Assembly: GCA_049605255.1 (NCBI GenBank)
Contig: JBMYUJ010000010.1
Span: 2,199 to 66,198 of the forward strand
Reading direction: 5' to 3'
Length of the DNA: 64,000 bases
Source of the DNA: Magnetospiraceae bacterium
GTDB taxonomy: Bacteria > Pseudomonadota > Alphaproteobacteria > Rhodospirillales > JBMYUJ01
Every line of letters begins with the position of its first letter. Within the stretch, counting starts at the first letter, position 1. Positions 59,437 through 63,577 of this stretch are shown piece after piece. The notes under the pieces are model-generated. The model saw nothing but the letters and a program-made list of their open reading frames with translations. It was not told where the DNA came from and ran no database searches. The position numbers were made by a program, and so were the translations under genes.

Positions 59437-60125
59437 CCCCGCCGACGCAGCTCCCGCTTGATTTGCCCTTTCGGCCTGCCTTGCAAGGCGAAGATTTTCT
59501 GGTGGCAGATTGCAACACCGCCGCCGTCCGTTGGATTGATCGTTGGCCAGACTGGCCCGCCCCTTTCCTCACTTTGTATGGCCCTCCGGGGAGCGGCAAA
59601 TCCCATTTGGCGCAGGTCTACCTTACCCAAACGGGCGGGCGAGCCAACAGCCTTCGTGACGTTACGGAGGTGCCCCCCGCGGACCTCGTGGGCAACGCAA
59701 CGGCCTTGTTGTTGGATGAGGTTGCCTTGCCCCTGTCCGCAGAAGCGGAACGGGGTTTGTTTCATTTGTATAACCATCTGAGGGAGCAGGGGGGCACTTT
59801 GCTTCTGATCGGGGAAATTCCGCCCGCCCAATGGCCGTTGGCCCTGGCGGATCTGCAATCCCGCCTCCGGGGCGCGCCCGCAGTCGGCATCGGTGCGCCG
59901 GATGACGCGCTCCTGCAGGCGGTGATGGTGAAGCAATGCGCCGACCGACAAATGACCGTGCCACCCGAAGTGATCGCCTATGCGCTGCCCCGCCTGGAGC
60001 GATCCTTTGCGGCGGTGCGGGCGTTCGTTGCGGCGCTGGACCAGCAGGCCCTGGCGGCAAAACACCCGGTAACGGTTCCTTTGGCAAGGACCGTGTTGGC
60101 CGATCAGTTTAGCGGCGGCGCATGA
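59433..60125 (+). CDS. hdaA: DnaA regulatory inactivator
   Basis: N-terminal clamp-binding QLPLDL, GPPGSGKSHL, LFHLYN, DLQSRL, PDD.LL, R.ERS. Confidence 0.92.
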   Translation: MTPPTQLPLDLPFRPALQGEDFLVADCNTAAVRWIDRWPDWPAPFLTLYGPPGSGKSHLAQVYLTQTGGRANSLRDVTEVPPADLVGNATALLLDEVALPLSAEAERGLFHLYNHLREQGGTLLLIGEIPPAQWPLALADLQSRLRGAPAVGIGAPDDALLQAVMVKQCADRQMTVPPEVIAYALPRLERSFAAVRAFVAALDQQALAAKHPVTVPLARTVLADQFSGGA

Positions 60126-62631
60126 CGAGGTTCACGTCCCCATAATAGGCATAGGCCAGATAGGTGGGGTCGCCGGTCTCCAAAAATCGCTGTCGGACCT
60201 GCCGTAACGCCTCCGACACCTTCACCGGTTGGTTCTGCTGGAAGCCCGCATCCACCTGATCATAGAACCGGGCGGCGAAATCTGCCGCCGACCGGTCCAC
60301 CACCGGCCACAGACCGCCGACAAATCCGCTGGCGCCCGTATCCAGCACCGCCGGGCCCCAGCCATCCACGAAATTCGCGACGGATTCCGCCCGGCCCACT
60401 TCACAGGCATTGAAGAAGAACAGGGTGCCTTCGGCGGTCTTGCCCTGGGTCAGGGCGCGCCACGTGGCCACATCCAGTCGGCGGCCTTCCAACTGCACCG
60501 CATAGTCGGGCACTAAGCCTTCCCCCGCAAGGCCGTGGCCGCTGAAATGCACCACGCCTTGTGCACCGCCTTGGAACAGGGCCTGGATTTCCGAAAAGGT
60601 GCCGGGAACCTGCTTGAACCCGGGGATTTTGCGCAGCGCGGCGACCTCTGTTTCCTGGAAGGGCAACAGGTTTTCCCCTTCATAGCGGGGCACCACCGCA
60701 TTCAACGCTGCCATTTCCAAGGATTGAACCGGCTTTTCCCGTTGCCGGGGGCCGCCATCCAAATGCCAGCGCGCGAGCTGATAATCCACCGCCAGGAAGC
60801 CCCGGTCGCCGGAGCAATCCTCCGAGGGCACCATGATCTCCCACGGCAGCAGGGGATCGTTGGAGAAGATCTGAATGGTTTGCAGGTTTACCGCCGGGTC
60901 GGCGGCCAAATCGTCGAAGGCTTTCTTAAAACCGGCGGGGGCAAAATGACGATAGAGGGCACAGCCCAGGCCCCGCATCTTCAGCAAGGCGAAGGATTTT
61001 TGATCTTCCGAGGGTTCGGCCGCCGCCTGGGCAAGGTCCATCACGTCGATAAAATTTTCCCCGAGCCATTCGCCCAGCTCCGGCGGCACCTCCATGGGCT
61101 GTACCACCAGCCGCGAGGGCGGACGGAAATGGGGGGAGGCGACGATGATCTGCCCCGTGCCCAATTGGCCCGGGTTGTCGAACAGCATATGGACGGTGAG
61201 ATCGGGGATCGCCGCCCGGCCAAAGGTCATCGGGGCGGATGGGGGCGTTGGTGTCGGATCTGCCGCTGCCTTCACGGCCTCGACCGTTGGGGCCGGGGCG
61301 GCCCCCTCGGCATCGGCCACCCTGTCCGCCGGGTAAATGGTCACATCCCGCCAGACGCGGGCCAAATATTCCCCCTCGTGCCAGAGAGTCACGCGGATGC
61401 GGGATTTTCGGGGCTTGTTGACCCCTTCCTTGGCGCGAAGATTAAACATTACCGGCTCGGACTCGTCCTCCCGGGGGAGGAAAATTTCCCGTTCTGCCTC
61501 GCCGTCTTCCAGGGTAAAGCCAGAGGCAGCGAGCACCACCTTAAGGGTCCAACCGTCTTTTTGCGGATCATCGGGCAGCTTTAACTGCAACGCGCCGTCA
61601 GCGGTCACGGCGGCCTTTTCACCGGAGGGCTCGGCCTTGACGGAAACCTCGGGTGTGATGAGGTCGGTAGAGAGCCAGAATTCCGCCCAGAGGGTTTCTC
61701 CGCTGGTCACTTCCTCGCCTTCCACATCCAGGGTTGGGTAGCGCGTGACCTCTGTGGTGACCAGCGAGAGGCCCCGGCGTTTCTTTTTCAATTTGACCTT
61801 CGTTTTGGGATCGCCGATCAGGTTCGGCTCCACGTCCTTCATGACCGGGGCGCCTGTATCGATGACGCCATCAAGTCCGGGATTAGCTGCTCCGATAGGG
61901 CTCTGATCCACAGACCCCATGTAAATTTCCTTGGGATCAAATCCCTCGGTCCCGTTATACCAAATCCCCTGCAGCTTATTTGTGGCCTGCCGAACTTCGG
62001 TATCCACCTCCCATAACAGCCACCACAGAGATTTGCCCGGTTGGCTCATGGCATAGCCAAAAAAACGGGCAAACAGGCCGCGCGGCGCCTGGGACTTCTC
62101 TCCCGGCGGCGCGGCGTACATCACACAGAGCCCACGCGGCACGTCGATCTCACGGAGCCCTTCCTCGGATGTATTGGCATCCAAAACCACCAGGGTCAGC
62201 CGATTGTCCACGGTTTGAAGGCCAGTCAACAGACTGGAGAGAGAGATGGCGGTTTCGGGTTTTGCGGGGTCGCCATCCAAGGGCAGGAGGTAATTCTCGC
62301 CGTCGATCACCCGCCCCTTGCCGACAAAATAGACCACGCCCAGGGAGTCGGGCCCCGCCGCTTTCAGTCCCTGAACGAATTCATCCAGGGCTTGCGTCAT
62401 ATATTGGCGGCTGAGATCGGTGCGCACGGTGACCTGGTACCCGGCTTCCTGCAATCCGGCGGCCACGACCACCGCATCGGTCCCCGCATTATTCACGGGG
62501 TCGGTATCATACAGACCGTTGCCGATCACCAGTGCCAAACGCTGTTCCGCCTGTACCGTACCTCCGAGTCCCAGAAGGCTGGCGACAAGGACCATCACAT
62601 ACAAACCGAGGCGGGATAAGCGGGTCATCAT
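60109..62631 (-). CDS. Predicted secreted protein: catalytically dead caspase-like (C14) domain + beta-rich spacer + CHAT protease domain
   Basis: Signal peptide (GTVQA); RLALVIGN..Y, YFVGKG and LDAN replacing the His/Cys dyad; C-terminal LPWE, VHFSGHG, FFNACEVG, GFVG.LWPV.D, AY.YYGD. Confidence 0.85.
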   Translation of the reverse strand: MMTRLSRLGLYVMVLVASLLGLGGTVQAEQRLALVIGNGLYDTDPVNNAGTDAVVVAAGLQEAGYQVTVRTDLSRQYMTQALDEFVQGLKAAGPDSLGVVYFVGKGRVIDGENYLLPLDGDPAKPETAISLSSLLTGLQTVDNRLTLVVLDANTSEEGLREIDVPRGLCVMYAAPPGEKSQAPRGLFARFFGYAMSQPGKSLWWLLWEVDTEVRQATNKLQGIWYNGTEGFDPKEIYMGSVDQSPIGAANPGLDGVIDTGAPVMKDVEPNLIGDPKTKVKLKKKRRGLSLVTTEVTRYPTLDVEGEEVTSGETLWAEFWLSTDLITPEVSVKAEPSGEKAAVTADGALQLKLPDDPQKDGWTLKVVLAASGFTLEDGEAEREIFLPREDESEPVMFNLRAKEGVNKPRKSRIRVTLWHEGEYLARVWRDVTIYPADRVADAEGAAPAPTVEAVKAAADPTPTPPSAPMTFGRAAIPDLTVHMLFDNPGQLGTGQIIVASPHFRPPSRLVVQPMEVPPELGEWLGENFIDVMDLAQAAAEPSEDQKSFALLKMRGLGCALYRHFAPAGFKKAFDDLAADPAVNLQTIQIFSNDPLLPWEIMVPSEDCSGDRGFLAVDYQLARWHLDGGPRQREKPVQSLEMAALNAVVPRYEGENLLPFQETEVAALRKIPGFKQVPGTFSEIQALFQGGAQGVVHFSGHGLAGEGLVPDYAVQLEGRRLDVATWRALTQGKTAEGTLFFFNACEVGRAESVANFVDGWGPAVLDTGASGFVGGLWPVVDRSAADFAARFYDQVDAGFQQNQPVKVSEALRQVRQRFLETGDPTYLAYAYYGDVNLVMRRR

Positions 62632-62690
62632 CACAGAATACGATCCTTGAAAAGAGCCTATGTTCATCGGAAGATCAGCATACGCGCGCC

Positions 62691-62831
62691 CTAGAGCGCG
62701 ATCGACTTAATATGGATCATGAAATGATACAGATTAAGTCGTGAATCGCCCTCTAAGATTTTATTTAGAGACGGATTCACGTTGAAATCACGGTCAAAAG
62801 GATGTCCAGGATTTCAACGATCCGGTTCTAG
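62691..62831. repeat. 141-bp CTAG-bounded palindromic intergenic repeat (CIR-like / MITE-like)
   Basis: Terminal IR CTAGAGCGCGATCG / CGATCCGGTTCTAG; three internal hairpins; symmetric GANTC sites (GAATC, GATTC) in the central hairpin. Confidence 0.8.
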
Positions 62832-62950
62832 GATTGCGGCAATCGGCAAGGGCCAATGAAAATATCTTATTGGTCTGGATTGGCTGCGATAAATCCGCCA
62901 TAACCGGTGTTAATCATTTTAACCCATCACCTGATCAGGAGAGAAACGGC

Positions 62951-63577
62951 ATGAGCGACGCCCTGAATTACCTCGTCAAGGCCCGACCGGATGCCATGAC
63001 CAGTTATTTCAAGTTTTTGAAGGGCGCCGGAGATCATCTCGACGTGAAAACCCGGGATCTGATCTCGGTCATTACCAAAGTGGATGTGCAAACGGAAAAC
63101 GGGCTGAAACAATACCTGTCCCGCGCCTTGCGTGATGGCTGCACCCCCAATGAAATCCTGGATGCCCTGCTGATGGCTTTCCCCACCTTGGGTCTGGCGA
63201 AGATCGTCTGGGCGGTGGATATCATCCTGTCCATGAACATCCCGGATTTTAATACGGAGATCCTGGGGGCCGATCCGGAATGGCATGATCTGGGGCCAAT
63301 CGAAGATTTCCCGGAAGGGGATGCCACCTATGTCACCGTCGATTTTCGCAGCCTGTTTGTGTACCGCACCGGAGATACCGTGAAAGTCTACGACAGCACC
63401 TGCCCCCATCAGGTCACCAATATTCCGGAACTGGCGGTGGCGGGCAAACAGCTCACCTGCCCGAAACACCAATGGAAGTTTGATCTCGGCACCGGGGATT
63501 GCGTCGAAAAAGGCACCCATCCGCTGAAATCTTTTGAAGCCAAGGTGGAGGCCGGGGCCCTCAAGGCCTACTGGTAA
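62951..63577 (+). CDS. Carboxymuconolactone decarboxylase/AhpD-like domain fused to a Rieske [2Fe-2S] domain
   Basis: LD.KTR.LI, AL..G.T..EI.DA.....P..G N-terminal domain; CPH and CPKHQWKFDL.TG Rieske ligands; AGGAG RBS before ATG 62951. Confidence 0.87.
   Translation: MSDALNYLVKARPDAMTSYFKFLKGAGDHLDVKTRDLISVITKVDVQTENGLKQYLSRALRDGCTPNEILDALLMAFPTLGLAKIVWAVDIILSMNIPDFNTEILGADPEWHDLGPIEDFPEGDATYVTVDFRSLFVYRTGDTVKVYDSTCPHQVTNIPELAVAGKQLTCPKHQWKFDLGTGDCVEKGTHPLKSFEAKVEAGALKAYW

What the first reader, a model, noticed from the sequence alone, without database searches (positions are those of the whole stretch)
60109..62631. Secreted tandem caspase-fold protein: dead C14 domain in front of an intact CHAT protease
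Seen: Sec-type signal peptide, then a caspase-like domain in which both catalytic residues are replaced (His to Lys, YFVGKG, codon 62317-62319; Cys to Asn, LDAN, 62173-62175). A linker with KKKRRGL, a beta-rich Ig-like spacer and a Pro/Ala linker follow. The C-terminal CHAT domain retains HFSGHG (60535-60537) and NAC (60403-60405). The gene is solitary, overlaps the end of hdaA tail-to-tail and has the palindromic repeat upstream. Established: CHAT and C14 are both caspase-hemoglobinase-fold proteases; bacterial members act in conflict and cell-death systems (gasdermin activation, Craspase) and are usually gated by sensor domains. Inference: the pseudo-caspase acts as a built-in inhibitor, scaffold or decoy for an extracytoplasmic CHAT protease, with the basic RRGL site as a processing point. 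No substrate gene is adjacent.
Basis: partly seen in the sequence, partly recalled or inferred. Interest (0 to 1): 0.7.

Follow-up and report, generated by a model that had tools for sequence, protein, structure and literature searches.

The report
Exported CHAT protease with dead caspase
This gene encodes an intact caspase-like (CHAT) protease, predicted to be exported, from a widespread unnamed family with a swappable front end; here the front end is a dead caspase domain, a fusion that arose several times and usually lost its activity, which likely points to a protease cascade outside the bacterial cytoplasm.

Summary
In detail: signal peptide, a C14 domain with His→Lys105 and Cys→Asn153, an Ig-like domain, and a CHAT domain with His699/Cys743. 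The conserved unit is the Ig+CHAT core (one rigid fold, pTM 0.91). It defines an unnamed family in several phyla: 171 non-redundant cores, His in 171, Cys in 170, mostly with an N-terminal hydrophobic segment. The N-terminal slot is interchangeable (C14 in 35 of 171; TPR, Sel1, CsgG or a bare linker in others). Fused C14 domains arose more than once and 31 of 35 are dead, against 3 of 54 stand-alone relatives and 0 of 8 paralogues in this genome. So this is not private decay, but the dead domain is dispensable and no docking on the core was predicted. KKKRRGL is not conserved. The family's conserved Arg-Gly site lies in a CHAT hairpin loop (111 of 171) that this protein lacks. The spacer is not TCAD7. 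There is no conserved substrate gene, though some loci carry a separate intact exported C14. Best reading: a docking module in an Arg↓Gly extracytoplasmic protease network; main rival: a tolerated relic.

The parts
60109..62631 (-). Gene for the 840-aa protein P0001 (signal peptide - dead C14 - linker - Ig-like - CHAT)
62548..62631 (-). Predicted Sec signal peptide, residues 1-28 (basic start, hydrophobic core, VQA|E)
   Evidence: hydropathy; mature start matches paralogues; no predictor run
61912..62547 (-). Dead paracaspase-type C14 domain, residues 29-240: His→Lys105, Cys→Asn153, post-Cys loop about 10 residues shorter; both Arg-pocket aspartates (Asp52, Asp151) kept
   Evidence: (MALT1 Z 24.2, rmsd 2.2 A, 192 aligned)
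61762..61911 (-). Disordered linker, residues 241-290, with KKKRRGL at 61768-61788 (not conserved)
   Evidence: pLDDT below 50
61333..61761 (-). Ig-like beta-sandwich, residues 291-433, constant part of the family core; weak DUF7363 resemblance, not TCAD7
61219..61332 (-). Pro/Ala-rich flexible linker, residues 434-471
60724..61218 (-). CHAT N-terminal (separase pseudo-protease-like) subdomain, residues 472-636; its hairpin loop (61009-61023) carries Arg-Gly in most relatives but no Arg here; Cys557/Cys606 are a likely disulfide
60112..60723 (-). Active CHAT subdomain, residues 637-840: His699 (60535-60537), Cys743 (60403-60405), conserved Asp779 (60295-60297)
62689..62831 (.). 143-bp dispersed palindromic intergenic repeat upstream of the gene (28 places in the genome); not part of the system

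Best explanation
The protein is a predicted exported, likely arginine-specific CHAT cysteine protease whose working unit is the Ig+CHAT core, and its dead C14 domain is a swappable front-end module that likely docks it into the cell's set of exported caspases rather than inhibiting it. Shown here: the architecture, the intact CHAT dyad, the constant core with a variable front end, repeated fusion of C14 domains with repeated loss of their dyad, and a family-wide Arg-Gly motif in one CHAT loop. Inferred: (1) export through Sec; (2) Arg specificity from Asp779; (3) the family is switched by cuts at Arg↓Gly, made by intact exported C14 proteases or by the CHAT itself; (4) a fused C14 tends to lose its cysteine because a self-activating Arg protease on the same chain would fire the switch, while its fold and Arg pocket stay as a binding or dimerising surface; (5) in this protein, which has lost the loop arginine, the exposed Arg286-Gly287 linker site would be the only such handle, and a cut there would free the core.
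For: Core: 201 clusters at 50% identity match the spacer region; 171 non-redundant complete cores keep His (171) and Cys (170); core model pTM 0.91 matches Csx29 (Z 22.6, rmsd 3.9, 305 aligned), separase (Z 22.4, 4.2, 312) and DdvA (Z 16.6, 3.7, 266). Export: hydrophobic N-terminal stretch in 126 of 149 members against 137 of 348 neighbouring genes; Cys557 always has its partner (7 of 7, one clade). Front-end slot: C14 in 35 of 171; TPR, Sel1, CsgG, DUF4384, S11+SPOR and others elsewhere; cytoplasmic relatives put TCAD7 (P0234) or TIR/HEAT (P0069) there. Dead fusions: 31 of 35, with 18 different residue pairs; Cys lost in 30, His in 13; stand-alone relatives 3 of 54, own paralogues 0 of 8; literature base rate 18.9% in Alphaproteobacteria (PMC6426788). 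One origin of the fused C14s is rejected (p-AU 4e-5). Asp151 is kept in 35 of 35 fused domains and Asp52 in 20 of 35; they align with the MALT1 aspartates that the review names as P1-Arg determinants. Arg-Gly loop: 111 of 171 against a shuffle mean of 40, maximum 56. Separate C14 genes, most with a recognisable Cys motif and a hydrophobic N-terminus, lie beside unfused members in 11 of 79 genome loci and 15 of 80 metagenome loci, never in a locus with a fusion. Precedents: SAVED-CHAT cuts and activates a C14 (10.1101/2023.06.23.546230); LcCaspase cuts its partner at putative sites with a conserved R↓G motif (PMC12642450); orthocaspase MaOC1 self-processes without a trigger (PMC5756287).
Against: No activity, partner or substrate is shown. 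The dead domain evolves fast (fused C14 pairs 29% identical against 41% for their cores and 40% for intact stand-alone C14 pairs; end branch 1.92 against 0.59 for the core), as a relic would. Four of 35 fusions, and 2 of 5 further distinct fusions from metagenomes, keep both catalytic residues, so killing the domain is not required; P0089 has an intact C14 together with the Arg-Gly loop. This protein is one of only 4 of 171 with no Arg in the loop, its RRGL is private and at chance level, and RG occurs five times in it. Most loci have no caspase neighbour and no conserved partner. Kin are not independent in any of these counts, and the fused/separate exclusion largely follows taxonomy.
Confidence: 0.45

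Rival explanations
1. The dead C14 is a tolerated relic. The Ig+CHAT core was captured as one more C-terminal cargo by the abundant modular exported C14 genes, gained a signal peptide that way, and the unneeded C14 is drifting; it acts at most as a folded spacer. The CHAT is an exported processing protease that works alone.
For: 136 of 171 members lack C14; 18 different dyad substitutions with no common replacement; lower profile scores for dead fusions (median 164 bits, P0001 125, against 230 for the four intact fusions); P0001 has deletions in the post-Cys loop and keeps 31 of 45 positions conserved in stand-alone C14s; the genome's own C14 genes show the constant-C14, variable-tail pattern.
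Against: The whole domain and reading frame are kept, with a confident fold (pLDDT mostly above 90); loss is lopsided (18 lost Cys only, 1 lost His only, 12 both), whereas a survey found both residues equally prone to change (PMC3501461); Asp151 is kept in all 35.
Confidence: 0.3
2. One reading: the pseudo-caspase is a built-in inhibitor or pro-domain of the CHAT and is removed by cleavage at RRGL.
For: A folded domain joined by a disordered, basic linker; RGL matches the loop motif of 4 of 8 intact paralogues; gingipain pro-domains are released at Arg (PMC4357240); the closest clade has tended to lose the internal loop Arg.
Against: The domain is absent from four fifths of the family, came from several unrelated C14 lineages, which fits poorly with one specific inhibitory interface, and is not confidently packed on the core in the model; the site is not conserved.
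Confidence: 0.15
3. The family are envelope signalling proteases (site-1 type, like the role proposed for DdvA) that cut a membrane sensor or anti-sigma factor; the front-end module is the sensor and no caspase cascade is involved.
For: Many members look membrane-anchored by one N-terminal helix; CHASE2 proteins (3 loci), histidine kinases and a Ser/Thr kinase are among immediate neighbours; one member starts with an RskA-like region (P0176); periplasmic CHAT precedent (PMC11506125).
Against: No sigma or anti-sigma gene recurs among the neighbours scanned; this protein has a cleavable-type signal and no TPR array; its neighbours are hdaA and a CMD-Rieske gene.
Confidence: 0.1

Closest known systems
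CHAT proteases Csx29 (Craspase) and separase
   Same: Same two-part protease fold and His-Cys dyad (Z 20-22.6); a conserved Asp 36 residues after the Cys, near where separase has its P1-Arg Asp (41 after; PMC10317155, PMC9729208).
   Different: No TPR scaffold, no CRISPR complex or securin; an Ig-like domain is packed on the protease; predicted to be exported.
DdvA of Myxococcus xanthus (periplasmic TPR-CHAT anti-sigma factor)
   Same: CHAT with an intact dyad outside the cytoplasm (PMC11506125; Z 16.6).
   Different: DdvA has a cytoplasmic zinc anti-sigma domain, a membrane helix, TPRs and a cognate ECF sigma; none is found here.
SAVED-CHAT / PCaspase cascade (Haliangium type III-B)
   Same: A CHAT protease functionally paired with a C14 protease.
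   Different: Cytoplasmic, two genes, both active, nucleotide-gated; here one exported chain with the C14 dead and no SAVED or CRISPR genes.
Bacterial pseudo-orthocaspases; metazoan cFLIP-L; inactive caspase effectors of VMAP ternary systems
   Same: C14 fold with a substituted dyad (8.6% of bacterial orthocaspases, 18.9% in Alphaproteobacteria, PMC6426788); decoy or peptide-binding roles were proposed (PMC7159879).
   Different: Here the pseudo-domain is fused in front of an active protease of another family, and inactivation recurs with the fusion (31 of 35).
Cytoplasmic TCAD7-Ig-CHAT and TIR-HEAT-DUF7363-CHAT proteins (P0234, P0069)
   Same: P0234 aligns over the whole Ig+CHAT core (HH probability 99.9, E 1.6e-36); P0069 over the CHAT part (E 1.2e-24).
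   Different: They carry cytoplasmic adaptor domains in the front slot; the present family carries a signal peptide or anchor and the Arg-Gly loop.
MALT1 paracaspase
   Same: Best structural match of the N-terminal domain (Z 24.2); caspase domain followed by an Ig domain; Arg-pocket aspartates align.
   Different: MALT1 is active and its Ig3 packs on the caspase; here the caspase is dead and the Ig domain belongs to the CHAT core.

Membership tests
CHAT (PF12770) clan CD protease | Profile match above the curated cut-off and separase/Csx29-like fold | tested here: met
   60.2 bits against cut-off 24; Z 22.6 to Csx29
CHAT (PF12770) clan CD protease | His-Cys dyad intact and conserved | tested here: met
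   His699, Cys743; 171 and 170 of 171
CHAT (PF12770) clan CD protease | Proteolytic activity | not testable with these tools
   needs an assay
Pseudo-orthocaspase (C14B, paracaspase-like) | C14 fold with substituted His/Cys | tested here: met
   PF00656 66 bits; MALT1 Z 24.2; Lys105/Asn153
Pseudo-orthocaspase (C14B, paracaspase-like) | No catalytic activity | not testable with these tools
   inferred from loss of both residues
Craspase / type III-E Csx29 | TPR domain and linkage to gRAMP/Csx30 | tested here: not met
   no TPR hit in P0001; neighbours are hdaA, AI-2E transporter, CMD-Rieske, DUF1501
SAVED-CHAT/PCaspase system | SAVED sensor fused to CHAT, active C14 within the gene cluster | tested here: not met
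   no SAVED hit; the eight other C14 genes lie on other contigs
DdvA-type anti-sigma factor | N-terminal zinc anti-sigma domain, membrane helix, periplasmic TPR-CHAT, adjacent ECF sigma | tested here: not met
   architecture and neighbours
Gasdermin-associated protease | Adjacent gasdermin gene | tested here: not met
   flanking genes identified as other families; the rest of the genome was not searched for gasdermin
TCAD7 domain (PF19973) | Spacer matches TCAD7 | tested here: not met
   0 of 20 spacers at E up to 10; none in the genome; in P0234 TCAD7 is 2-143 and the spacer homologue 207-330
DUF7363 (PF24063) | Spacer matches DUF7363 above cut-off | tested here: inconclusive
   9 of 20 family spacers hit weakly (best E 6e-4, all under cut-off; P0001 itself none); the family profile did not align to the DUF7363 of P0069
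Sec-exported protein | Cleaved signal peptide | tested here: inconclusive
   pattern and family hydropathy fit; no predictor or proteomics

The most novel reading that the evidence does not exclude
Bacteria of several phyla run a caspase cascade outside the cytoplasm: exported C14 proteases, this Ig-CHAT protease and Tat-exported partner proteins switch each other on at Arg↓Gly sites, and cFLIP-like pseudo-caspases have evolved repeatedly by fusion to act as the docking unit between the two protease families.
Probability: 0.25. Interest if true: 0.8.

Novelty: new variant of a known kind. Interest (0 to 1): 0.5.

Why it matters
The characterised bacterial CHAT proteases in the papers I read act in the cytoplasm, apart from DdvA, whose activity has not been shown. 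This family is a sizeable, undescribed exported branch with a near-invariant active site and a sharply defined candidate cut site, so its activity is directly testable. The repeated death of fused C14 domains is a natural experiment on how pseudo-proteases arise. If the cascade reading holds, it would give a role to the many exported orthocaspases of Alphaproteobacteria and Acidobacteria, whose function is open. For this single gene the result is more modest: it is an atypical member that lacks the family's loop motif and has no linked partner.

Tried and rejected
Complex prediction of the dead domain with the core: the tool's queue was full and nothing was folded, so docking is untested beyond the pTM comparison. 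TCAD7 identity of the spacer: rejected. Upstream palindrome as a regulatory part of the gene: rejected, 28 places in the genome; no convincing Rfam match; promoter and terminator scans at chance level. A conserved substrate gene: none among 95 neighbouring proteins scanned; the Acidobacterial Tat partner was not found in this genome with one query (no positive control). Phage carriage: no relative in viral contigs. PADLOC: only a generic caspase model. Sequence search of solved structures with the core profile found nothing below E 0.37. Expression: no RNA holder listed, which is no evidence either way; read laying gave too little variation for a selection test. The Ig domain's best solved matches are macroglobulin-type domains of complement C3/C4, CD109 and bacterial alpha-2-macroglobulin, and an amylopullulanase domain (Z 8.3-9.3): a middling score for a common fold, not used as evidence. 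Two alignment-based protein searches added little. An IQ-TREE run on 171 cores did not finish and was replaced by FastTree. The Cys column was misaligned and was redone. The primary separase paper was not held, so the match of Asp779 to separase Asp2151 rests on spacing in two other papers and on my recall of the motif.
Full report
Observation. Pfam finds C14 at 31-221 and CHAT at 595-819. AlphaFold2 with 77 sequences gives a confident C14 domain (29-240), a disordered linker (241-290), a beta-sandwich (292-433), a second flexible linker and a two-part CHAT. The N-terminal domain matches MALT1 (Z 24.2, rmsd 2.2 A over 192 residues). The core folded alone gives pTM 0.91 and matches Csx29, separase, gingipains, SAVED-CHAT and DdvA. 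Full-length pTM is 0.67, about what a rigid core plus an unplaced domain would give; this is my inference, as I could not inspect coordinates. Both dead-site codons are confirmed by contigs of a second run of the same study. The gene sits between hdaA and a CMD-Rieske gene; its G+C (61.5%) is near the genome's (59.7%). It is the only CHAT gene found in this 95.5% complete genome, which has eight further C14 genes on other contigs, all with His and Cys and, by inspection, signal-like hydrophobic stretches near their likely starts.

The family. Of the first 30 relatives, most cover about 65% of the query, the Ig+CHAT part. A search with residues 278-544 found 201 clusters at 50% identity, of which 150 were listed. 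A scan of species-representative genomes confirmed 112 loci and kept 79, from Alpha-, Beta- and Gammaproteobacteria, Acidobacteriota, Myxococcota, Calditrichota and others; a metagenome scan confirmed at least 216 and kept 80; viral contigs gave none. In the window's own order the core was found in 4 of 301 genomes, this one included. From proteins and genome loci I kept 204 complete cores and reduced them to 171 at under 90% identity; truncated records were dropped, among them one fusion with an intact C14 (P0165) and one dead one (P0190). The CHAT His is present in 171 of 171 and the Cys in 170. An N-terminal hydrophobic stretch occurs in 126 of 149 members with enough N-terminal sequence, against 137 of 348 neighbouring genes. 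The front end varies: Pfam on 60 members without C14 shows TPR, Sel1, CsgG, DUF4384, S11+SPOR, carboxypeptidase-regulatory and mostly unannotated linkers. The spacer is not TCAD7 (0 of 20) and only weakly resembles DUF7363 (9 of 20, all under cut-off). The cytoplasmic protein P0234 aligns over the whole core and carries TCAD7 in front of it, so the family is an exported branch of a wider Ig+CHAT group with an adaptor slot at the N-terminus.

The dead domain. C14 fills the slot in 35 of 171 members. Of these 31 lack His, Cys or both, in 18 different combinations; 18 lost only Cys, 1 only His, 12 both. Among 54 stand-alone relatives 3 are dead, among 8 paralogues none. The stand-alone set was gathered by similarity to the query and is not a random sample; the published rate for Alphaproteobacteria is 18.9% (PMC6426788, passages). 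In the metagenome loci, 5 further distinct fusions were 3 dead and 2 intact, a weaker ratio; pooled, 34 of 40. Fused domains are scattered among stand-alone ones on the C14 tree, and one clade is rejected on a 29-row subset (14 of the 35 fused, 15 of the 62 others; p-AU 4e-5); I chose that subset after seeing the first tree, and P0001 itself is a long, unplaced branch. C14 presence needs 23 changes on the core tree, a number inflated by records cut at the N-terminus. The nearest core (P0089) carries an intact C14 of a different lineage. The dead domains evolve faster than their cores (29% against 41% mean identity). P0001 keeps 31 of 45 positions conserved in stand-alone C14s, including Asp52 and Asp151, which align with the MALT1 aspartates that a review names as P1-Arg determinants (PMC4357240, passages); Asp151 may also be structural.

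Arg-Gly sites. A loop in the helical hairpin of the CHAT N-terminal subdomain holds Arg-Gly in 111 of 171 members (1000 shuffles: mean 40, maximum 56), Arg followed by Ser, Ala or Asp in 39 more, another Arg in 17, and no Arg in 4, P0001 among them. KKKRRGL is not conserved: C14-to-Ig linkers hold 15 Arg-Gly against 20 expected, in 12 of 35 members. RG occurs five times in P0001 (166, 184, 286, 553, 610), and 286 is the only one in the disordered linker. It resembles the loop after the catalytic Cys in 4 of 8 paralogues. A bacterial caspase cuts its partner at putative sites with a conserved R↓G motif (PMC12642450, section 7 read in full). The CHAT's own Asp779 is present in 166 of 171; separase uses an Asp 41 residues after its Cys to bind P1 Arg, and Csx29 has Lys there and cuts elsewhere (PMC10317155 and PMC9729208, passages). 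Equating the positions is inference.

Neighbours. No partner is shared across the family; most immediate neighbours are housekeeping genes (95 proteins scanned). Separate C14 genes lie within the fetched flanks in 11 of 79 genome loci and 15 of 80 metagenome loci, many of them short, and never together with a fusion. In Acidobacteria a three-gene arrangement recurs: this protease, an exported intact C14 with paired Arg-Gly motifs near its C-terminus, and an unannotated Tat-signal protein (5 genome loci, 10 metagenome loci). That partner was not found in the window's genome.

Mechanism and rivals. I favour a docking role for the dead domain within an Arg↓Gly network of exported caspase-fold proteases (0.45). 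A relic that only supplied export is the main rival (0.3). A built-in inhibitor (0.15) fits poorly with dispensability and multiple origins. A DdvA-like signalling role (0.1) lacks a recurring sigma partner. That the protein is an exported CHAT protease with an interchangeable dead front end is much firmer than any of these roles.

Literature. Ten full-text searches found no description of this family or of the C14-Ig-CHAT fusion; TCAD7+caspase and DUF7363 returned no paper. I saw passages of PMC3501461, PMC6426788, 10.1101/2023.06.23.546230, PMC11506125, PMC5756287, PMC10317155, PMC4357240, PMC7159879, PMC9729208 and PMC8195603, and passages plus one full section of PMC12642450; PMC4847710 was not held. 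I read no supplements; the source-data tables of PMC7159879 and PMC8195603 could list these architectures. Subscription journals are mostly outside the library. Earlier notes of the scan had nothing for this sequence or genome; a word search gave other exported caspase-fold cases and the DdvA lead.

Verdict. Real, and more than a private oddity, but built from known parts: a new variant of a known kind, interest 0.5.

Noticed in passing
window 62689-62831; also G000 C10:46406-46492 (inside this window) and 26 other places: A 143-bp palindromic intergenic repeat with TAGAG-like ends and two GANTC sites, at 28 places in the genome. From recall it resembles the CIR-type repeats of Caulobacter and rhizobia; no Rfam match.
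   Followed up: partly
L067:3719-7697, L072:9450-13018, L077:9421-13046, L090:4124-7693, L044:3823-7711; metagenome loci L127, L132-L134, L143, L145, L146, L156, L166, L168: Recurring Acidobacterial trio: Ig-CHAT protease, exported intact C14 with paired Arg-Gly motifs, and an unannotated Tat-signal protein of about 380 aa with a hydrophobic hairpin-like stretch (no Pfam, no PADLOC hit; Atlas clusters unnamed). A candidate substrate or effector and the best system for testing the cascade.
   Followed up: partly
G000 contigs C1, C4, C6, C7, C14, C36, C94, C140: Eight C14 genes with intact dyads and variable tails in a 3.3-Mb genome; four have RGL in the loop after the catalytic Cys.
   Followed up: partly
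L029:4493-10914 and L047:4390-10878: Tandem pairs of Ig-CHAT genes followed by a convergent CHASE2 gene in Blastocatellia; L021 has a CHASE2-cyclase gene directly downstream.
   Followed up: no
L038, L078, L079, L082, L025, L026: Clusters of several exported caspase-fold genes (WD40-C14, C14-FGE, C14-DUF4384, TPR-CHAT) with CsgG-like or M48 proteins around the family gene.
   Followed up: no
window 62834-63577 (+): Gene fusing a carboxymuconolactone-decarboxylase-like domain to a Rieske ferredoxin domain.
   Followed up: no
L065, L073, L080, L081, L084, L088, L093, L025: Family genes split into two ORFs in these assemblies (frameshift or stop); several are long-contig MAGs, so sequencing error and decay cannot be told apart.
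   Followed up: no
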